Of a stretch of DNA of 64,000 nt, positions 2,222 to 56,645 are shown in pieces. Under the pieces are notes generated by a model. It was given only the letters and a program-made list of their open reading frames with translations, did not search any database and had not been told where the DNA came from. Source of the DNA: Jatrophihabitantaceae bacterium (GTDB lineage Bacteria > Actinomycetota > Actinomycetes > Mycobacteriales > Jatrophihabitantaceae); assembly GCA_051000395.1 (NCBI GenBank), contig JBPCOI010000078.1, forward strand, positions 15,780-79,779, given 5' to 3'. Position 1 is the first letter of the stretch, and every line of letters begins with the position of its first letter. The position numbers and the translations under genes are program-made.

Positions 2222-3811
2222 TCAGGAGCCGAGCAGGCCGCCGAGGCTGCCGCCCAGTACGTACACGCCGGGAGCGGTGGTGCGCAGGGACGTCCACCCG
2301 GCGCCGTCGTCGCTCACGCTCGCCGCCAGGTTCGTGCTGCGTTCCGCGGCGTGCAGGAACTTCGACCACCGCACTCGGACCGTCACCGCGCAGGTGCACG
2401 GAACCGCCACCGTCACCTGCGCCTGACTGGCGGAGACCATCGACGCCGGCGGGGCCACGATCGGGGTCGGGCGCACGACGCGGAACAGCTGCCAGTCCGT
2501 GGTCTGCCAGATCGGCACCAGGTAAGGCAGTGACGCGGTCTCGACGAGGTGGTACTCGGCGTCGTTGCTGACGCTCAACGCGGGCATCGCGACGTAGCCG
2601 ACCGCGTTGTTCTCCAGCCACACCTTGTACGTGGTGGCGTCCAGGTGCTTGCCCTGGATCGCGCCGTTGAGCTCGTTGTCCTCCTGAGTCTCCCAGCCGC
2701 GCGCCAGGGCGGCGTGGTTCAGCAATGCGTCATAGGCCGCGTGCGCCCCGTGGTTGACCACCTCGACGCGGTACTTCTGCAGCCCGCTGATGCTGTCCAG
2801 CTCGGTGGCCAGCGGCTGGTAGTAGCCGACGGAGGAGACCGGGTTGCCGGCATTGCGCAGGTCGACGATCGTCCCGCTCGTGCCGGTGAGCAGCAGCGGG
2901 AAGGCCACCAGGACCAGGATCCAGGTACGGAACGCGCTCAGCGCGACCACGGCGACCGGCAGACAGAACCAGACGATGCGCGCGACGTTGGAGCCCATGC
3001 CGTTCGGGAAAGTGGCGAGTACGAGGGTCGCGATCAGCGACACCCAGATCGTGGTGCGCAGCCAGACGGGCGGGCGCGCCAGCAGGAGCAGCAGCAGTCC
3101 GGCAACGGCCTCCAGCTTCAGCGTGCCGGAGAACGGTTCGGGGCCGGGCGTGCCGAAGACCAGGCCGACGGCGCCGAGCCCGACACCGATCGCGACGATC
3201 GTGATCCACGCGATGCGGCGGTAGTCGCGATAGGAGATGAACACGCCCGACAGGCCCATGGCCAGGAACACGCCCGTCACCGGGGAGGCGAGGATGCTGA
3301 GCAGGCCGAGCAGCACGGCTGCCGTCAGCCTGCGGTTGCGCACGCAGATCAGCGCGCCGATCGCGATGGCCGCGCCGAACAGGAACGGCACGCGTCCGCT
3401 CCACAGGTTGACGGCCGCGGCGTAGGCGGCGATGGCGGTGCCGGCCAGCGGGTGCGCAGTGCCGCGCAGCAGCGGCATACACAGCAGCGGGATCGCCACC
3501 GCGGACAGGGCCGCCAGCAGCTCGGTGGTGATCAGCGCGGACAGGTAGGGGGTCAGCACCGAGTAGTTGCCCGGCGTGGATCCGCCACCGAACCACGAGA
3601 ACCAGTACGTCAGGCCGACACCGTTCTGCACCGCAGAGGCACGTGCCCGCGCGGCCCACAGATCGTTGACGTCAGGCCGCACCACCAAGAACGCGATCGC
3701 GTTCAGCGCCGCCAATACCAACGGCGCGAACCGCCCGAGAGCGTTCAGCCCACCGGCTGGTTGCCGGGCTAGCCGCAGCCCGCCCAGCCTGCCCTCGGCG
3801 ACTGCGGTCAC
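2222..3811 (-). CDS. Polytopic membrane protein with C-terminal extracytoplasmic domain (GT-C-like glycosyltransferase candidate)
   Basis: Only the last ~530 codons of the 744-aa track ORF are credible. The upstream part overlaps the DUF4012 gene and is Arg/Pro-rich. GTG at 3811. Roughly 10-12 hydrophobic segments, then a ~200-aa soluble domain. Confidence 0.6.
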   Translation of the reverse strand: MTAVAEGRLGGLRLARQPAGGLNALGRFAPLVLAALNAIAFLVVRPDVNDLWAARARASAVQNGVGLTYWFSWFGGGSTPGNYSVLTPYLSALITTELLAALSAVAIPLLCMPLLRGTAHPLAGTAIAAYAAAVNLWSGRVPFLFGAAIAIGALICVRNRRLTAAVLLGLLSILASPVTGVFLAMGLSGVFISYRDYRRIAWITIVAIGVGLGAVGLVFGTPGPEPFSGTLKLEAVAGLLLLLLARPPVWLRTTIWVSLIATLVLATFPNGMGSNVARIVWFCLPVAVVALSAFRTWILVLVAFPLLLTGTSGTIVDLRNAGNPVSSVGYYQPLATELDSISGLQKYRVEVVNHGAHAAYDALLNHAALARGWETQEDNELNGAIQGKHLDATTYKVWLENNAVGYVAMPALSVSNDAEYHLVETASLPYLVPIWQTTDWQLFRVVRPTPIVAPPASMVSASQAQVTVAVPCTCAVTVRVRWSKFLHAAERSTNLAASVSDDGAGWTSLRTTAPGVYVLGGSLGGLLGS

Positions 3812-3912
3812 CGGCCCATGGTCGCACAGGACGGCGCTGCGACGGCCGCGCGCGCTGCGCGGGCGCCCGGTTGCGTGCCGATCTCTTCCACTTCCAACCT
3901 CGGCGGGACGGC

Positions 3913-50132: not shown

Positions 50133-50423
50133 ATGCGCCATTACGAAGTGATGGTCATTCTCGATCCCAGTCTCGAAGAGCGCACCATCGCGCCCTCGCT
50201 CGACACGTTTCTGTCCGTCGTGAAGTCCGACGGTGGCGCGGTCGAAAAGGTCGACATCTGGGGCAAGCGCCGGATGGCCTACGAGATCGACAAGCACGTC
50301 GAGGGCATCTACGCCGTCATCGATCTGCAGGCCAACCCCGCGGCCGTCCAGGAGCTCGACCGTCAGCTCAACCTCAACGAATCGGTGCTGCGGACCAAGG
50401 TCCTGCGCCCGGACGCGCGGTAA
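50133..50423 (+). CDS. rpsF: 30S ribosomal protein S6
   Basis: [18 protein letters not shown]... matches the canonical S6 N-terminus. The upstream 63 codons of the track ORF are discarded. Confidence 0.95.
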
Positions 50424-50429
50424 CCGGCA

Positions 50430-50933
50430 ATGGCAGGCGACACCGTCATCACCGTGGTCGGCAACCTCACCGCCGACCCCGAGCTGCGCTTCACCGCGTC
50501 GGGCGCGGCCGTCGCGTCGTTCACCATCGCGTCGACGCCGCGCAGCTTCGACAAGAACACCAACGCGTGGAAGGACGGCGAGGCGCTGTTCCTGCGCTGC
50601 TCGCTGTGGCGCCAGGCCGCGGAGAACGCGGCCGAGTCGCTGACCCGCGGCATACGGGTGATCGCGCAGGGGCGGCTACAGCAGCGCTCCTACGAGACGC
50701 GCGAGGGCGAGAAGCGCACCGTCATCGAGCTGCAGGTCGACGAGGTCGGCCCCTCGCTGAAGTACGCCTCGGCCAAGGTGAACCGCACCCAGCGCGGCTC
50801 CTCCAGCGGCGGCGGGTTCGGCTCGTCCGGCTCGGATGCCGGCGGCGGCGGCGGCGCTCCTGCCGAGGACCCGTGGGGCTCGGCACCGGCCGCCGGTAGC
50901 GGCGGCGGTTTCTCCGAAGAGCCCCCATTCTGA
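50430..50933 (+). CDS. ssb: Single-stranded DNA-binding protein
   Basis: OB-fold N-terminus [14 protein letters not shown], Gly-rich linker, acidic tip EEPPF. Confidence 0.96.
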
Positions 50934-51023: not shown

Positions 51024-51260
51024 ATGGCCAAGCCCCCCATCCGCAAGCCGAAGAAGAAGGCGAACCCCCTGCTCGCCGCCAAGATCGGCTACATCGACTA
51101 CAAGGACACCAACCTGCTGTGCAAGTTCGTGTCCGACCGCGGCAAGATCCGTGCCCGCCGGGTCACCGGCGTGAGCTCGCAGCAGCAGCGCCAGCTCGCC
51201 AAGGCGATCAAGAACGCCCGCGAGATGGCGCTGCTCCCCTACACCTCGACCGCGCGCTAG
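51024..51260 (+). CDS. rpsR: 30S ribosomal protein S18
   Basis: 78 aa. [26 protein letters not shown]. Confidence 0.96.
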
Positions 51261-51269
51261 GAGGCAGCC

Positions 51270-51716
51270 GTGAAGCTCATCCTCACCCGTGAGGTAGCCG
51301 GGCTCGGTCTGGCCGGAGACGTCGTCGAAGTCGCCGACGGCTACGGACGCAACTTCCTGGTGCCGCGCGGCGCGGCAATCACGTGGAGCAAGGGCGCCGA
51401 GAAGCAGATCGTGCAGATCAGGCGCGCGCGCGACGCCCGCGAGATCCGTGATCTCGGACACGCCCGCGAGATCAAGGCCGAGCTCGAGAAGCTGTCCGTC
51501 ACGCTCGGCGCGCGTGCCGGCGATGGCGGACGGCTGTTCGGTTCGATCACCGCGGCCGACGTGGCCGGCGCCGTCAAGGACGCCGGCGGCCCGCTGCTGG
51601 ACCGCAAGCGCATCCAGTTGCCGGGGCACATCAAGACGACCGGATCGCACACCGTGACCGTCGACCTGCATCCCGACGTCGTAGCGTCCGTACCGCTGAC
51701 CGTGAACGCGGTCTGA
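51270..51716 (+). CDS. rplI: 50S ribosomal protein L9
   Basis: MKLILTREVAGLGLAGDVVEVADGYGRNFLVPRG. AGGAGG RBS overlaps the rpsR stop. Confidence 0.96.
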   Translation: MKLILTREVAGLGLAGDVVEVADGYGRNFLVPRGAAITWSKGAEKQIVQIRRARDAREIRDLGHAREIKAELEKLSVTLGARAGDGGRLFGSITAADVAGAVKDAGGPLLDRKRIQLPGHIKTTGSHTVTVDLHPDVVASVPLTVNAV

Positions 51717-51799
51717 CCACTCCGCTCTCCTCCGGCTCGTCCGGCACACGGCGTCGTGCCGGACGGGCGCGGCGCGGAGCAAGCAGTTACGGTGCGAGC

Positions 51800-52819
51800 G
51801 TGCAGGAAGACGAGCTTCGCCAGCGCGACCGCGATGGGGCCCGGGCCCGTCATCGCGGATCGGACGCGCGCGGCGAAGATCCGGGGCACGGGACGGATGC
51901 TGTGCGCACGAGCGGCGACGTCGCACGCCACTCGAAGGCACCGCGCCCGTGGCGCGAGGCGGATCCGGTGCCTGTGCCGGCCTATGCTCCGGACGCGCGG
52001 ACCGTCGCGCCCCGGGCGAGCCTCGCTGCGCCGGCGGCGTCCTCCCGCCCGGGGGTCCAGGACGAAACAGAGCCCGCCGCCGCGCGAGCCGAGCTGCACG
52101 CGGCTCGCGCCGAACTCGCCGCCGTCCGAGCCGAACTGCAGGCCGTCCGGCTCGAGCACCACGCCGAGCGGGGACGTCGCGAAGACGCCGAGCAACGCGC
52201 CGCGGACGCCCGTCAGGAGGCCGAGGCGGCACGCGAGGGCGGCGCGATCGCGCTCGGCAAGATGCGTGACCGCTGCATCGAGCAGATCGAGTTGCGCAAG
52301 GACACCGAACGCCAGGCGCTCGCTGCGGCGCAGCGCGCTGCCGACACGTACCGCATGCTCAGCGAGCAGTGCGCGGAGCTGCAGGCGCACCTGGCTCGCT
52401 CGCGCCAGGAGACCGGCGCGGTTCGCGAGGAGCTCGCCGAACAGCTCCGGCGCACGCAGGCCGGTGATCGGCGCATTGCGGGCACGCGGCAGCAGCTGAT
52501 CGAGGCCGAGCAGCAGGGTGCCGCCGCCGATCATCGCCTGGCCGGCACCCGGCAGCAGCTGATCGAGGCCGAGCAACTGCTGCACGAAGCGCAGGTGGCG
52601 GCAGCGGCAGCCCGCACGGCCGACGAACGGCGCCGTAGCGAACTGCAGCGGCGCCTGGAGCAGGCGGCGCAGCGCGCGGTAGACGCCGACGCAAAGCGAG
52701 TGGCCGCCGAGCAACGCGTCCTCAGCGCCGAACAGCATGTCGCCGAAGCCGACCAGCAATTGCTCGCCGTCGCGCAGTTGGTGTCCGGATTGCAGCAGCG
52801 TTCCCGCACTGCGAAGTGA
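51800..52819 (+). CDS. Coiled-coil protein (Arg-rich disordered N-terminus + ~230-aa helical rod)
   Basis: High GC3 in this frame. A/E/R/Q-rich heptad-like sequence. Exact 26-nt duplication (52487-52512 and 52550-52575) gives a 21-aa tandem repeat AGTRQQLIEAEQ. Confidence 0.6.
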   Translation: MQEDELRQRDRDGARARHRGSDARGEDPGHGTDAVRTSGDVARHSKAPRPWREADPVPVPAYAPDARTVAPRASLAAPAASSRPGVQDETEPAAARAELHAARAELAAVRAELQAVRLEHHAERGRREDAEQRAADARQEAEAAREGGAIALGKMRDRCIEQIELRKDTERQALAAAQRAADTYRMLSEQCAELQAHLARSRQETGAVREELAEQLRRTQAGDRRIAGTRQQLIEAEQQGAAADHRLAGTRQQLIEAEQLLHEAQVAAAAARTADERRRSELQRRLEQAAQRAVDADAKRVAAEQRVLSAEQHVAEADQQLLAVAQLVSGLQQRSRTAK

Positions 52820-52978
52820 GCAACGACGCTCGACGCGGCCACCTGACGATGGTCAACTTCGCTGTCCGTCCTTCTGTGGCTATCGTCGTGGGGCGAGCGT
52901 CTGGCCAGCGTGGACCGGGATGCCGCGGCCGGCTGCGGCCGACGCCGAGAACGACCTGGAAAGTGAAACGGGAGGCCA

Positions 52979-54946
52979 GTGATGGGGGCCGTGCAGCAGC
53001 GCGAGAGCGCGCGCAAGGACGACGCCGAGGCCCGCATCGCGGAGGCCCGCATCGCCGAGGCGGAGCAGCGCCTGGCCGACGAGCGCGCCGCGGCATCGCG
53101 ACGCCTCTCGGCGATCATGGCCGAGGTCGCTGAGGAACTCGAAGCCGAACGCAGCGAGAAGAAGGCCCTGCAGCAGGCCCACGACGAGCAGGCCGCTGCG
53201 CGCGCCGAGGCCGAGCAACGCCTGATCGACAACGAGCAGTCTCAGCAGAGCGCGCAGCAGTCCGAGCATGAGCGGCGCGCGGAGGCTGAGGCCCGGGTCG
53301 CCGAGCTCACCGTCGCGCTCGACGAGCACCGGGCCACGCTGGACGCCCTGCAGCAGGCGCACGACGCTCACGCCACCGCCCGCGCCGAGGCCGAGAAGCG
53401 CCAGGCGGAGAGCGAGCAGCTGCTGCAGGATGCCCGGCACAGCCACGAGGCCGACCACGCCAGGGAACTCGATGTCGAGCGCAGCGCGAAGCAGGTGCTC
53501 TCGGCCGAACGCGACGAGCACGCGGCCGCCCGCGACGCGGCGCGCGAGCAGCTCCTCGAGAGCGAGCAGGAGCTGCGGGCCGCCCGCGAGAGCCAGGAAA
53601 TCGAGGGCACACGGCGCGCTGAGGCCGAGGCCCGCGTCGCGGAGCTGACTGCGACGCTCGACGAGCAGCGTGCGAAAATCGACACGCTGCAGGAGGCACG
53701 CGACGAGCAGGCCAGCAGCCGCGAGACTGCCGAGGCCCGGCTTGCCGAGGCCGAGCAGAGCGTGCACGAGCACACCGAGCGCGCGGCGGCAGCCGAGCGT
53801 CGCCTCGCCGGCAACACGGCCGCATTGACGGAGGAACTCGAGATGGAACGCACCGCGAAGCTGGCCCTTCAGGTCTCCCACGACGAACAGGCAGCCGGCA
53901 GGGAGAACGCCGAGCAGAAGCTCGCGGCGACCGAGCGGTCCTTGACGGAGGCGCAAACGGCGTTGCAGGAGGCAGAGGAACGCCAACAGGCCGAGCAGGA
54001 ACGTCTCGCCCAGGCCGAGGCGCGGGTCAGCGAGCTGAGCGCCCAGCTGGCCGAGCAGCAGGCCAAGCTCGATTCGGCGCAGCAGATCCACGACGAGCAG
54101 GTCGCGGCCCGCGAGGCGGCAGAGCTGCGTCGCGACGAGGCCGAGGAGACGATGCGGGCGGCACTGGCGGCCAACCAGCCCGAGATCGAGCGCGCCAATG
54201 CCGCCGAGCGCCAGCTCGCCGTCATCACCGCCGAGGTCGCCGAGGAACTGGAGATGCAGCGCAACGCACGGCAGTCGCTGCGGATCGTGCGCGACGAGCA
54301 CGCCGCCGCCCGCGAGGCCGCTGAGCAGCGCCGGGCCGAGGCCGAGCAGGCGATGGAGGCCGCGCAGGCCGCGCACCGTGCCGAGTCGCGGCGCCGGGCG
54401 CAGGCCGATGCCCGCTCCGCCGAGCTGGCCGCCCAGGCCGAGGAGCACCGGGCTCGCGCCGACGCCCTGCAGAGCGCGCACGACGAGCACGCCGCGGCGC
54501 GCGACGCGGCCGAGCAGCGCCTCACCGAGCTCGAGCAGGCGCTGAAGGAGGCCGAAGCGGCCCGCGACGCCGAGACTGAGCGCGCCGCAGCCGAGGAGCA
54601 TAAGCTGTCCGCCCTCACGGCCAAGCTCACCGAGGAACTGGAGATGCAGCGCAGCGAGACCCGCGCGCAGCAGTACAAGCACCAGCAGGGACACGCCAAC
54701 GAAGTCCGGCGCCGGGAACTCGCCGAGCAGGCGCGAGCTGAGGCCGAGCAGGCACGCGCGGAGGCCGAGCGACGCTACGAGGAGGCCGAGGCTCGCCGGG
54801 CGGAGGCCGAGACGGCTCGCGAGGAGGCCGAGGACCGCCGGGCGGAGGCCGAGAAGGACCTGGCGAACGCCGACGAGCAGCTCGCCGGTGCCGCCCAGGC
54901 GCTGGCCACCTTCCAGCTGCGTTCCCGTCCGCAGGCCGACGCCTGA
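52979..54946 (+). CDS. Long modular coiled-coil protein (~655 aa)
   Basis: GGGAGG RBS before GTG 52979/ATG 52982. Almost entirely A/E/R/Q/L. Alternating A modules (EELE[AM][EQ]R...HDE[QH]AAAR.AAEQ) and B modules (RRAEAEARVAELT..LDE.RA..D.LQ), about 4.5 times. Confidence 0.75.
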   Translation: MMGAVQQRESARKDDAEARIAEARIAEAEQRLADERAAASRRLSAIMAEVAEELEAERSEKKALQQAHDEQAAARAEAEQRLIDNEQSQQSAQQSEHERRAEAEARVAELTVALDEHRATLDALQQAHDAHATARAEAEKRQAESEQLLQDARHSHEADHARELDVERSAKQVLSAERDEHAAARDAAREQLLESEQELRAARESQEIEGTRRAEAEARVAELTATLDEQRAKIDTLQEARDEQASSRETAEARLAEAEQSVHEHTERAAAAERRLAGNTAALTEELEMERTAKLALQVSHDEQAAGRENAEQKLAATERSLTEAQTALQEAEERQQAEQERLAQAEARVSELSAQLAEQQAKLDSAQQIHDEQVAAREAAELRRDEAEETMRAALAANQPEIERANAAERQLAVITAEVAEELEMQRNARQSLRIVRDEHAAAREAAEQRRAEAEQAMEAAQAAHRAESRRRAQADARSAELAAQAEEHRARADALQSAHDEHAAARDAAEQRLTELEQALKEAEAARDAETERAAAEEHKLSALTAKLTEELEMQRSETRAQQYKHQQGHANEVRRRELAEQARAEAEQARAEAERRYEEAEARRAEAETAREEAEDRRAEAEKDLANADEQLAGAAQALATFQLRSRPQADA

Positions 54947-54978
54947 TCGCCGCCGGCGGTTCACCCAGCAGGTATTTT

Positions 54979-55107
54979 TCCTCCACAGGGCACGGACGTC
55001 GCGAGGGCCGTCCCGCCTGAGCCGGTACCCAGCCGCCCGTCGATATCCACAGCGCCGTCCACCGGTCGTCTACAGGAGCTCCGGCGAGTCGCACAGCGTC
55101 GTCCACA
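54979..55107 (+). promoter_or_regulatory. Three co-oriented DnaA-box-like 9-mers upstream of dnaB
   Basis: TCCTCCACA (54979-54987), ATATCCACA (55043-55051) and TCGTCCACA (55099-55107), compared with the consensus TT[AG]TCCACA. Weaker GTCCACC (55057-55063) in between. Confidence 0.35.
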
Positions 55108-55225
55108 GCTGGGCGCACAAGCCGAATTGCCCGCGGCTCGTCAGGCCTCTAACGTCTGCTCCACCGCAACGCAGTCAGCCAGGACGTGCCGACAACGCCA
55201 GAACTGTCGGTAGCGCCCGGTAGTT

Positions 55226-55243
55226 CTGTGTGCGTGCACACAG
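55226..55243. promoter_or_regulatory. 18-bp palindrome CTGTGTGC-gt-GCACACAG 23 nt before the dnaB ATG
   Basis: 8-bp perfect arms, partly overlapped by a second inverted repeat CAGAACT-N16-AGTTCTG ending at 55228. Confidence 0.35.
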
Positions 55244-55265
55244 GCAATCGGGAGGGCGACCGGGC

Positions 55266-56645
55266 ATGACGCTGGCCGACGACTCGCGGGTGGCCGCGGC
55301 GCCCCGGGAGTACGACCGCACGCCACCGCAGGCTGTCGAGGCGGAGCAGTCGGTGCTCGGCGCGATGATGCTGTCCAAGGACGCGATCGCCGACGTGGTG
55401 GAGATCGTGCGTCCGGGCGACTTCTACCGGCCGGCCCACCAGCTGGTCTACGACGCCGTCCTCGACCTGTATGCCCGCGGCGAACCGGCCGACGCCGTCA
55501 CGGTGTCCGCGGAGCTGACGCGGGCCGGGCAGCTGGTGCGTGCCGGCGGCGCGCCGTACCTGCACACGCTGATCTCTATGGTGCCGACGGCGGCCAATGC
55601 CGGTTACTACGCGCAGATCGTGGCCGAGCGGGCGACGCTGCGCCGCCTGGTCACCGCCGGCACGCGGATCGTGCAGATGGGTTACGACACTGCCTCGGGC
55701 TCGCAGGACGTCACCGGCAGCGTCGACGACGTCGTCGACCGCGCGCAGGCCGAGATCTACGAGGTCACCGAGCGGCGCACCAGCGAGGACTACGTCCACA
55801 TAGAGTCGCTGCTGCAGAGCACCCTGGACGAGATCGACAAGATCGCCTCGACCGGCGGTATCGGCACCGGTATCCCGACCGGATTCCACCAGCTCGACGA
55901 GTACACCAACGGGCTGCACCCCGGCCAGATGATCACGATCGCCGGCCGTCCCGGCTCCGGCAAGAGCACCCTCGCGCTCGACATCGCCCGCTCGGCGGCG
56001 GTGAAGCATCAGAAGCCGACGGTCATCTTCTCGCTGGAGATGGGCAAGCTCGAGATCATGATGCGGCTGTTCTCCGCGGAGGCGGGGGTGGCGCTGCAGA
56101 ACATGCGTTCCGGGCACATGAGCGACCAGGACTGGACTCGCCTGGCGCTGCGCTCGAGCGAACTGGCCGACGCCCCGCTATTCATCGACGACTCGCCGAA
56201 CCTGACGATGATGGAGATCCGCGCCAAGGCCCGCCGGCTACGCCAGCGCGCCGACCTGCAGCTGATCGTGATCGACTACCTGCAGCTGATGACCAGCGGC
56301 AAACGCGTCGAGTCGCGCCAGCAGGAGGTCAGCGAGTTCTCCCGCGCGATGAAGCTGCTAGCCAAGGAGCTCGACGTACCGGTGGTCGCGCTCTCGCAGC
56401 TCAACCGCGGACCCGAGCAGCGCACCGACAAGAAGCCGCTGCTGTCCGACCTGCGCGAGTCGGGTAGTATCGAACAGGATTCGGACATGGTGCTGCTCGT
56501 GCACCGCCCCGACCTGTACGAGCCGGAGACCGAACGCGCCGGCGAGGCCGACCTGATCATCGCCAAGCACCGCAACGGCCCCACCGCCACCGTCGCAGTC
56601 GCCTTCCAAGGCCGCTACAGCCGCTTCACCGACATGCCCCGCTGA
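55266..56645 (+). CDS. dnaB: Replicative DNA helicase DnaB (no intein)
   Basis: PPQAVEAEQSVLGAMML N-terminus. Walker A GRPGSGKST. LIVIDYLQLM and SQLNRGPEQR motifs. ATG 55266 after GGGAGGG. Confidence 0.96.
   Translation: MTLADDSRVAAAPREYDRTPPQAVEAEQSVLGAMMLSKDAIADVVEIVRPGDFYRPAHQLVYDAVLDLYARGEPADAVTVSAELTRAGQLVRAGGAPYLHTLISMVPTAANAGYYAQIVAERATLRRLVTAGTRIVQMGYDTASGSQDVTGSVDDVVDRAQAEIYEVTERRTSEDYVHIESLLQSTLDEIDKIASTGGIGTGIPTGFHQLDEYTNGLHPGQMITIAGRPGSGKSTLALDIARSAAVKHQKPTVIFSLEMGKLEIMMRLFSAEAGVALQNMRSGHMSDQDWTRLALRSSELADAPLFIDDSPNLTMMEIRAKARRLRQRADLQLIVIDYLQLMTSGKRVESRQQEVSEFSRAMKLLAKELDVPVVALSQLNRGPEQRTDKKPLLSDLRESGSIEQDSDMVLLVHRPDLYEPETERAGEADLIIAKHRNGPTATVAVAFQGRYSRFTDMPR

What the first reader, a model, noticed from the sequence alone, without database searches (positions are those of the whole stretch)
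51800..54946. Two consecutive long coiled-coil genes with a modular A/B super-repeat between rplI and dnaB
ORF 51800-52819 has a disordered Arg-rich head and a ~230-aa rod with an exact 21-aa tandem duplication. ORF 52979-54946 (~655 aa) is almost pure A/E/R/Q/L helix. The second is built from alternating modules. A modules read ..L...TEELEM[EQ]R.A...L....DE[QH]AA.R.AAEQ, starting near aa 41, 160, 273, 409 and 538. B modules read RRAEAEARVAELT..LDE.RA..D.LQ.A.DE, starting near aa 98, 211, 340 and 470. That gives a period of about 113-136 aa. There is no TM helix, signal peptide or enzymatic motif. Long repeat-structured coiled coils in Actinobacteria (FilP and Scy in Streptomyces, DivIVA/Wag31) form cytoskeletal or polarity scaffolds. 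A pair wedged between the ribosomal/ssb operon and dnaB might be a lineage-specific filament system or a chromosome/replisome tether.
Basis: partly seen in the sequence, partly recalled or inferred. Interest (0 to 1): 0.6.

Follow-up and report, generated by a model that had tools for sequence, protein, structure and literature searches.

The report
Lineage-specific pair of coiled-coil genes
Two real, neighbouring genes for long rod-shaped (coiled-coil) proteins sit as a 3.3-kb insertion between rplI and dnaB; they form a new, very narrowly distributed family seen only in a few Jatrophihabitantaceae genomes, probably a structural scaffold, with no tested function.

Summary
ORF1 (51800-52819, 339 aa) and ORF2 (52982-54946, 654 aa) are genuine + strand genes. 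Against orthologues, third-codon-position changes are about twice those at positions 1 and 2, and synonymous codon changes outnumber the antisense reading four-fold. ORF2 is an almost unbroken helix built from alternating A/B modules (N-terminal versus C-terminal part: 44% identity, E 4e-33). The "exact 21-aa duplication" in ORF1 is really 14 of 21 residues.

The hydrophobic period is 3.52-3.53, a heptad coiled coil. It is not the hendecad type of FilP/Scy, and the DivIVA-like GYDxxEVD motif is absent. Pfam, NCBIfam and PDB give no family.

The pair always travels together, in three genera of the family and four metagenome contigs. Both proteins end in one shared ~55-aa tail (...AExQLxxAAxxLxxxQLRxR).

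- A profile search of 1.84 billion proteins found only two fragments.
- 400 genomes of the order had none.
- In 20 of 20 other family genomes examined, rplI is followed directly by dnaB.
- In one genus the pair sits next to dnaK instead, so the replisome-tether idea loses its basis.

Best guess: a co-assembling cytoplasmic coiled-coil scaffold, inferred and not shown. Expression could not be tested. Interest is modest.

The parts
51270..51716 (+). rplI (ribosomal protein L9), last gene of rpsF-ssb-rpsR-rplI; left flank of the insertion
   Evidence: Pfam Ribosomal_L9_N/C. Found in 61 of 61 family genomes.
51732..51775 (+). G+C-rich hairpin (13-bp perfect stem) just after rplI; possible rplI terminator (inference)
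   Evidence: RNA fold: MFE -48.1 kcal/mol for 51710-51805, z -1.85. The consensus terminator scan found no U-tract terminator.
51750..55043 (.). About 3.3-kb insertion relative to the family's usual rplI-dnaB arrangement
   Evidence: DNA similarity to relatives ends at 51694-51750 and resumes at about 55044. In 20 of 20 other family genomes examined the rplI-dnaB gap is 274-1243 bp, and 19 of them have no ORF in it.
51788..51793 (+). TACGGT, a TANNNT-type -10-like hexamer ending 7 nt before GTG 51800. It is compatible with a leaderless ORF1 mRNA (inference only).
   Evidence: Sequence read directly. No sigma-70 consensus promoter was found by the scan.
51800..52819 (+). ORF1, the 'first' gene of the pair: 339 aa, 37 kDa, pI 6.8. 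Start codon uncertain.
   Evidence: ORF list. Gapless 211-aa alignment to the first gene of metagenome contig L056 (36% id, E 1e-16). Conserved EAARxGGAxALGxMRDR block shared with the g3 first genes. AF2 model: helix 2-18, disordered 19-92, single helix 93-337, pLDDT 80.
52169..52801 (+). Conserved rod core of ORF1 (aa 124-334)
   Evidence: Gapless BLASTP alignment. Hydrophobic period 3.53, power 1.58 against 0.62 +/- 0.18 in shuffles.
52469..52594 (+). Imperfect tandem duplication of 21 aa in ORF1 (aa 224-244 and 245-265; 14 of 21 identical)
   Evidence: DNA repeat D12, 52460-52512 and 52523-52575, 85%.
52610..52816 (+). ORF1 C-terminal tail domain, shared with ORF2 (...AEADQQLLAVAQLVSGLQQRSR)
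   Evidence: Alignment A4. A leave-one-out profile built without ORF1 hits it at E 4.4e-8, while none of 200 shuffles appeared among the hits listed.
52970..52975 (+). Shine-Dalgarno GGGAGG of ORF2
   Evidence: Sequence. It lies 6 nt before ATG 52982.
52982..54946 (+). ORF2, the 'second' gene of the pair: 654 aa from ATG 52982 (655 from GTG 52979), 72.8 kDa, pI 4.9, net charge -58
   Evidence: ORF list. Orthologues: 52-53% and 49% identity over the full-length alignment, 61-68% over the C-terminal ~270 aa, 55% over 462 aa to L056 (E 3e-86). Codon-position test. AF2 model: helices 2-152, 162-397 and 399-646, pLDDT 77.
53093..54703 (+). A/B super-repeat region (aa 39-575 in 655-aa numbering). 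A modules at aa 39, 151, 272, 409, 539. B modules at aa 99, 212, 341, 472.
   Evidence: DNA repeat families D1-D8 at 60-80% identity.
54191..54358 (+). Best-conserved block of ORF2 (A4 module, aa 405-460: AERQLAVITAEVAEELEMQRNARQSLRIVRDEHAAAREAAEQRR...); candidate partner-binding site (inference)
   Evidence: Alignments A1 and A2. Pairwise alignment with L056.
54701..54943 (+). ORF2 C-terminal domain. It holds about 7 charged Ala/Glu/Arg heptads (only 1 large hydrophobic residue in 40 aa) and the shared tail ...ANADEQLAGAAQALATFQLRSR.
   Evidence: The tail profile A4 finds exactly two adjacent genes per genome that carries the pair (E 1e-18 to 1e-24; next best 1e-4).
55044..55229 (+). Ancestral dnaB upstream region; right flank of the insertion
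   Evidence: blastn similarity to the rplI-dnaB spacers of relatives resumes here.
55230..56645 (+). dnaB replicative helicase (context)
   Evidence: Pfam DnaB and DnaB_C, E 1e-34 and 3e-104.

Best explanation
ORF1 and ORF2 are a two-gene cassette coding for soluble, cytoplasmic, heptad-type coiled-coil rod proteins of a new family. The family is restricted to a few Jatrophihabitantaceae lineages.

**Shown**
- Both genes are under purifying selection and always occur as an adjacent, co-oriented pair.
- They share a homologous C-terminal tail of about 55 aa.
- They have no enzymatic, membrane or secretion feature.
- ORF1 is predicted as a disordered head plus one 245-residue helix. That is about 36 nm at ~0.15 nm per residue (my estimate, not a tool result).
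- ORF2 is predicted as about 645 helical residues in three segments (about 95 nm on the same estimate), built by repeated duplication of a ~60-aa unit in two alternating flavours.

**Inferred**
- Each protein forms parallel left-handed coiled-coil dimers.
- The shared rod-end tail mediates association between the two proteins or end-to-end assembly, much as conserved rod ends do in intermediate filaments.
- The product is a hetero-oligomeric structural scaffold.
- The strongly conserved A4 module of ORF2 is a docking site for an unknown partner.

The position between rplI and dnaB is an insertion into a variable slot, not a functional link to replication.
For: - **Coding.** Codon-position and synonymous/non-synonymous asymmetry favour the + frame. 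ORF2 has a strong SD.
- **Coiled coil.** Hydrophobic period is 3.52-3.53, with power 5-10 SD above the mean of shuffles. AF2 models are all-helical. ORF2 has only 6 Gly and 2 Pro.
- **Pairing.** A first and a second gene lie adjacent in G000, G046, G047, G076 and in contigs L056, L057, L058 and L059.
- **Shared tail.** The tail profile finds exactly two genes per genome that carries the pair, and the leave-one-out test is positive.
- **The cassette moves as a unit.** It sits between rplI and dnaB in three lineages, and upstream of a membrane-protein gene (dnaK further downstream in G046 and G002) in genus g3.
- **No other function signal.** Pfam, NCBIfam, PDB sequence search and Foldseek are all empty or far below threshold.
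- **Precedent.** The neighbouring coiled-coil-rich proteins ZicK and ZacK polymerise only together (bioRxiv 10.1101/553073).
Against: - There is no expression, localisation or assembly data.
- All carriers are MAGs or metagenome contigs.
- Monomer AF2 says nothing about oligomeric state.
- ORF2 carries a net charge of -58, and its last ~50 rod residues lack a hydrophobic core. Parts of it may therefore be single helices rather than paired coils.
- ORF1 and ORF2 differ two-fold in length, so a simple in-register heterodimer along the whole rod is impossible.
- The first gene varies from 200 to about 780 aa between lineages, which argues against a tightly constrained lattice.
- The patchy distribution shows the pair is dispensable for the family.
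Confidence: 0.45

Rival explanations
1. Origin-proximal chromosome or replisome tether: the rods link DNA or DnaB to a cellular landmark.
For: The pair is adjacent to dnaB and ssb in three lineages (window; G076; L056). Both known sites lie in the same dnaK-to-dnaB region, about 50 kb apart in the window.
Against: - In genus g3, rplI is followed directly by dnaB and the pair lies elsewhere.
- All 20 other family genomes examined manage with an rplI-dnaB gap that lacks the cassette (19 have no ORF in it).
- The ORF1 head has net charge -1 and ORF2 is strongly acidic, so no DNA-binding feature is visible.
- No HTH, ParB or SMC-head domain was found.
Confidence: 0.08
2. Independent homopolymeric intermediate-filament-like proteins (crescentin/FilP style), each forming its own filaments. 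Pairing would only reflect tandem duplication.
For: - Head-rod architecture of ORF1.
- Heptad rods with stutter-type register shifts, as in IF proteins.
- A conserved rod-end motif.
- The tails are paralogous.
Against: The two genes have stayed adjacent through at least one relocation, and across lineages whose ORF2 orthologues have diverged to about 50% identity over their full length. That is more than a recent duplication would explain. Outside the tail the two proteins are not detectably similar, so the duplication is old and yet the linkage persists.
Confidence: 0.2
3. Non-scaffold hydrophilic helical protein, for example a stress or desiccation protectant (LEA-like hydrophilin) or an adaptor or regulator that only uses coiled coils for dimerisation.
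For: - The composition is extremely hydrophilic and charged.
- Distribution among environmental MAGs is patchy and the pair is dispensable.
- Rod length changes quickly through repeat gain and loss.
Against: - The heptad hydrophobic signal is strong and regular, whereas LEA group-3 proteins are usually described as 11-mer repeats (my own knowledge).
- No LEA Pfam hit at E <= 1.
- Several blocks are >80% conserved and the ORF1 core aligns without gaps, which implies a specific structure or partner.
Confidence: 0.12
4. Remnant of a mobile element or phage, for example a fibre-like protein.
For: - The cassette is inserted or relocated in different lineages.
- The ER-rich heptads of the ORF2 tail region hit phage tail-fibre-like proteins in the 1.84-billion-protein search.
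Against: - Those hits cover only the low-complexity RxxAExx heptads (profile positions ~195-250), not the specific blocks.
- No direct repeats bracketing the 51750-55043 insert were reported by the repeat scan of the insert itself.
- No phage, integrase or transposase genes were seen among the ORFs flanking the insert.
- GC and GC3 match the host genes.
Confidence: 0.03

Closest known systems
ZicK/ZacK of Anabaena sp. PCC 7120 (neighbouring coiled-coil-rich proteins that polymerise only as a heteropolymer; bioRxiv 10.1101/553073)
   Same: Two neighbouring, co-oriented genes for coiled-coil-rich proteins with no other domains. The neighbourhood is conserved across related genomes (53 of 72 there; every carrier here). 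The number of coiled-coil segments varies between homologues.
   Different: I have no evidence of sequence relationship, and none was tested. The phylum differs. Heteropolymerisation is shown for ZicK/ZacK and only inferred here. The shared C-terminal tail and the A/B super-repeat are specific to this pair.
FilP and Scy of Streptomyces (DivIVA-like domain family; PMC9858780, PMC6599971)
   Same: Actinobacterial Ala/Glu/Arg-rich long rods. The genes are adjacent paralogues (my own knowledge for scy-filP). Head-rod organisation. One family member from a metagenome (first gene of L056) even has 29-residue repeats with a 3.63 period, close to the hendecad-type periodicity described for Scy/FilP.
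   Different: The N-terminal GYDxxEVD DivIVA-like motif is absent. The window's two proteins are heptad-type (3.52-3.53). No Pfam DivIVA hit. The conserved module is at the C-terminus, not the N-terminus.
Intermediate-filament-like proteins in general (crescentin, lamin-like rods)
   Same: Disordered head plus long heptad rod with stutter-like register shifts. The best-conserved short motif sits at the end of the rod, as with the IF helix-termination motif (my own knowledge).
   Different: No homology. No globular tail. ORF2 has no head. Assembly is untested.
SMC/Rad50 coiled-coil arms
   Same: The only database models that align at all (TIGR02168, 17-20 bits).
   Different: Scores lie far below the 567-bit cut-off. 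There are no ATPase head or hinge domains. The match reflects generic coiled-coil composition.

Membership tests
FilP/Scy/DivIVA (DivIVA-like domain family) | [quoted passage not shown] | tested here: not met
   Strict and relaxed regex found nothing in ORF1, ORF2 or six homologues. No Pfam DivIVA hit at E <= 1.
FilP/Scy/DivIVA (DivIVA-like domain family) | Rod dominated by hendecad-type periodicity (about 3.64-3.67 residues) with an Ala-rich core | tested here: not met
   Fourier peak at 3.53 (ORF1 rod) and 3.52 (ORF2). Power at 3.64-3.67 is at background.
Bacterial IF-like / coiled-coil-rich proteins (architectural class) | Long alpha-helical coiled-coil rod covering most of the protein, with no enzymatic domain | tested here: met
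   AF2 models have helices of 245 residues (ORF1) and 151, 236 and 248 residues (ORF2). The heptad signal is significant. No domains found.
Bacterial IF-like / coiled-coil-rich proteins (architectural class) | Cofactor-independent self-assembly into filaments in vitro | not testable with these tools
   This needs purified protein and EM.
SMC / Rad50 | Walker A/B ABC-type ATPase head halves at both termini, plus a hinge | tested here: not met
   TIGR02168 gives 17-20 bits against a cut-off of 567, aligned only to the arm region. No AAA or ABC Pfam hit.
Gram-positive surface coiled-coil proteins (M-protein-like) | N-terminal signal peptide and C-terminal LPXTG or membrane anchor | tested here: not met
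   No hydrophobic stretch: maximum KD 19-aa mean 0.69 and 0.27. The sequences end in QLRSR plus a few polar residues.
ZicK/ZacK-type heteropolymeric CCRP pair | Two neighbouring CCRP genes whose products polymerise only together | tested here: inconclusive
   Conserved adjacency is met. Interdependent polymerisation cannot be tested here. Sequence similarity to ZicK/ZacK was not examined.
LEA / hydrophilin | 11-mer amphipathic repeats, match to LEA Pfam models | tested here: not met
   Period is 3.52, not 3.67. No LEA family at E <= 1.

The most novel reading that the evidence does not exclude
The pair is an obligate two-component intermediate-filament-like cytoskeleton in which the shared C-terminal 'QLRxR' rod-end domain is the longitudinal assembly interface. 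That would make it an independently evolved, minimal analogue of IF rod-end overlap. Rod length would be tuned lineage by lineage through repeat expansion: A/B modules in ORF2, and 29-residue non-heptad repeats in one ORF1 orthologue.
Probability: 0.2. Interest if true: 0.5.

Novelty: new member of a known kind. Interest (0 to 1): 0.3.

Why it matters
If the inferred mechanism holds, this would be a second example of a bacterial cytoskeletal element built from two different coiled-coil subunits, after the cyanobacterial ZicK/ZacK. It would offer a clean natural series for studying how repeat gain and loss sets rod length: first gene 200-780 aa, second gene about 470-740 aa, all with one conserved tail.

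In practice it defines a new two-gene family with a diagnostic tail motif for annotation. It also shows that the rplI-dnaB spacer of Actinobacteria is a slot that accepts foreign cassettes, so adjacency to dnaB should not be read as function.

The family is tiny, known only from uncultured genomes and without phenotype, so the immediate impact is small.

Tried and rejected
- **Word-indexed protein search.** Searching 5.8 billion clusters with ORF2, whole and over aa 395-580, was swamped by low-complexity candidates and returned nothing.
- **The search for related loci.** On genome contigs with alignment A1 it chose poor patterns and confirmed nothing. A hand-made degenerate DNA pattern for QY[RK][HN]QQ...NE.RRRELAEQ worked instead.
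- **Database searches.** PDB profile search and Foldseek of the ORF2 model gave no informative hits. Pfam and NCBIfam gave only sub-threshold SMC, OVT1, myosin-tail and similar matches.
- **ORF1 versus ORF2 over full length.** Not significant (E 0.8). Only the tail is demonstrably shared.
- **ORF1-ORF2 intergenic region.** No conservation across genera.
- **Single-alpha-helix (ER/K) reading of ORF2 aa 575-625.** The count of i to i+4 Glu-Arg pairs is low (3 in 40 aa), so this stays undecided.
- **Promoter/terminator scan.** Nothing on the + strand.
- **Two-gene (L9 + DnaB) tree.** It places g1, g3 and g48 in one 98%-supported clade. Genera that lack the pair are interspersed, and internal support is weak. 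Loss and transfer therefore cannot be told apart.
- **Antisense ORFs.** 52880-54964 and 51341-52759 are rejected as genes on the codon-position evidence.
Full report
**Where the window comes from and what surrounds the finding**

The window is contig C11 of a 2.7-Mb, 99-contig MAG. Record titles of its relatives place it in Jatrophihabitantaceae. The local gene order is:
- a class-A PBP, then a GT87 membrane protein, then an unknown exported protein;
- rpsF (50136-50423), ssb (50430-50933), rpsR (51024-51260), rplI (51270-51716);
- ORF1, ORF2, then dnaB (55230-56645).

**Are the ORFs genes?**

At 72% G+C every frame is open, including antisense ORFs of 472 and 694 aa, so an open frame means nothing here.
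- ORF2 has GC3 0.90.
- Over the 259-261 unambiguously aligned C-terminal codons, differences to three orthologues fall at positions 1, 2 and 3 as 48-70, 51-66 and 86-110.
- Synonymous codon changes are 47-55 in the + frame against 11-13 in the antisense register.
- ORF2 has GGGAGG 6 nt before ATG 52982.
- ORF1 aligns without a single gap over 211 aa (36% identity, composition-adjusted E 1e-16) with the first gene of metagenome contig L056.
- ORF1 also shares an EAARxGGAxALGxMRDR block with the g3 first genes.

Both are real genes. The ORF1 start is uncertain. GTG 51800 has no SD. It lies 7 nt after a TANNNT-like TACGGT and 25 nt after a strong hairpin that follows rplI. This would fit a leaderless transcript, but that is inference only.

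**Anatomy**

ORF2 is 25.6% Ala, 18.8% Glu, 12.4% Arg and 9.6% Gln, with 6 Gly and 2 Pro in 655 aa. Its pI is 4.9 and its net charge is -58.
- A modules (..ERxLAxxTAEVAEELEMxR....L....DEHAAAR.AAEQ) at aa 39, 151, 272, 409 and 539;
- B modules (RRAEAEARVAELTAxLDExRAxxDxLQxAHDEHAxAR.AAExRL) at aa 99, 212, 341 and 472.

The two module types share their second half. The unit is therefore about 60 aa in two alternating flavours, giving a 112-137-aa super-repeat. The repetition is significant: aa 1-270 versus 271-655 gives 44% identity, E 4e-33. It is also old, since the DNA copies are only 60-80% identical.

ORF1 has a 91-aa Arg/Ala/Asp/Pro-rich head (net charge -1), predicted disordered, and one helix from aa 93 to 337. 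Its 21-aa duplication is 14 of 21 identical, not exact.

AF2 models ORF2 as three helices (2-152, 162-397, 399-646), with low-confidence hinges at 151-162, 275-291 and about 398. There is no TM segment or signal peptide.

**Register**

The hydrophobic Fourier peak is at 3.52 for ORF2 and 3.53 for the ORF1 rod, 5-10 SD above the mean of shuffles. Nothing appears at 3.64-3.67. A sliding heptad assignment shows segments of 30-90 residues separated by 3- or 4-residue register shifts. These are classical left-handed heptad coiled coils with stutters. All orthologues behave the same way, with one exception: the first 490 aa of the L056 first gene are about 17 tandem 29-residue repeats with period 3.63.

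**Relatives and distribution**

ORF2 orthologues were found in only 4 of the 141 other genomes of the family: G002, G046 and G047 (genus g3) and G076 (g48). Further searches gave the following.
- A profile of the conserved C-terminal 270 aa against 1.84 billion representative proteins returned two true hits. Both are short fragments, and one is probably a chimeric contig. The remaining hits matched only the Ala/Glu/Arg heptads.
- 400 other genomes of the order (97 genera) had none.
- A degenerate DNA pattern found the same four genomes among the 185,579 species of genome contigs, plus four JGI metagenome contigs.

In every carrier there are two adjacent, co-oriented genes. The variable 'first' gene is 200 aa in G076, 339 aa here, 718 aa in L056 and up to ~780 aa (open frame) in g3. 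The 'second' gene is about 470-740 aa.

**The shared tail**

All first and second proteins end in the same ~55-aa module: AE.AR.EAE.RRA.AE..LA.A[DE].QL..AA..L...Q[LV]R.R.
- A profile of it finds exactly two hits per genome that carries the pair (E 1e-18 to 1e-24), with the next-best hit in the family at 1e-4.
- A profile built without ORF1 still finds ORF1 at 4e-8, while none of 200 shuffled rods appeared among the hits listed.
- Outside the tail, ORF1 and ORF2 are not detectably similar.

The genes are therefore old paralogues, or share a module, and they have stayed linked.

**Genomic position**

In 20 of 20 other family genomes examined (about 18 genera), rplI is followed by dnaB after 274-1243 bp, with no ORF in 19 of them. 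DNA similarity of the window to those genomes stops at 51694-51750 and resumes at about 55044. So about 3.3 kb here is an insertion.

The same site is occupied in G076 and in L056. In genus g3 the rplI-dnaB gap is empty. There the pair sits upstream of a Pfam-less polytopic membrane-protein gene, with dnaK further downstream in G046 and G002. The window has that membrane-protein/dnaK locus too, about 48 kb upstream and without the pair.

An L9 + DnaB tree puts the three carrier genera in one clade (98% support) together with non-carrier genera. Multiple losses or transfer within the family cannot be separated.

Notes from other readers describe the rplI-dnaB slot as variable in Actinobacteria. 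My data agree for this family.

**Comparison with known families**

- FilP/Scy/DivIVA are defined by the N-terminal GYDxxEVD motif, plus hendecad-rich rods for FilP/Scy (PMC9858780). Both features were tested and not met.
- SMC models align only to arm regions at 17-20 bits against a 567-bit cut-off.
- Nothing turned up in PDB by sequence or fold.
- The closest functional analogy is ZicK/ZacK, neighbouring coiled-coil-rich proteins that assemble only as a heteropolymer.
- General IF logic also fits: head, heptad rod with stutters, conserved rod-end motif.

**Mechanism proposed**

Shown: two conserved, linked, domain-less, soluble heptad rods sharing a C-terminal module.

Inferred: parallel dimers that interact through the tail to build a hetero-oligomeric scaffold, with the >80%-conserved A4 module (aa 405-460) as a docking site. 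I put about 0.45 on this.

The replisome-tether reading drops to about 0.08, because adjacency to dnaB is not conserved and no DNA-binding feature exists.

**What could not be done**

Multimer modelling is not available.

**Verdict**

This is a genuine, well-delimited and very narrowly distributed new coiled-coil gene pair. The FilP/Scy and replisome interpretations are not supported. Interest is modest.

Noticed in passing
L056:5005-7161 (-), metagenome contig Ga0068856_100011189: The orthologue of ORF1 in this contig carries about 17 tandem 29-residue repeats (self-identity peaks at lags 29, 58, 87, 116). Their hydrophobic period is 3.63 (= 29/8), a non-heptad, nearly unsupercoiled repeat. 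Its last 228 aa and all other family members are heptad-type.
   Followed up: partly
protein P0002 (181 aa, from the representative library): A signal-peptide plus YbgF/CpoB-like N-terminus is joined at 'LQYRNQQ' to a near-perfect g3-type tail of the second gene. This is most likely a chimeric metagenome assembly rather than a real fusion.
   Followed up: no
window 51732-51775 (+): A 13-bp perfect G+C-rich stem-loop lies directly after the rplI stop, with no U tract. It may be a factor-independent terminator of the ribosomal operon.
   Followed up: partly
window 55044-55134: A block upstream of dnaB is conserved at 72-79% with the rplI-dnaB spacers of several other genera. It overlaps the DnaA-box-like cluster flagged by another first-reader note (54979-55107). 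So at least part of that cluster belongs to the ancestral dnaB leader or promoter region and did not arrive with the insertion.
   Followed up: partly
loci L019, L020, L022, L023, L034-L038 (relatives' dnaB): tblastn matches to the window's 471-aa DnaB span 1.9-4.2 kb in 9 of 20 relatives, which suggests intein-containing dnaB genes. The window's dnaB has no insert.
   Followed up: no
window 2231-3826 (-), next to dnaK (155-2176, -): A ~530-aa polytopic membrane protein without a Pfam family is 63% identical to the gene that directly follows the coiled-coil pair in genus g3.
   Followed up: partly
proteins P0003, P0004, P0017, P0111: Large phage tail-fibre-like proteins with very long arrays of AExxRxx heptads are the main spurious hits of the ORF2 tail-region profile. 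The similarity is compositional and periodic only.
   Followed up: no
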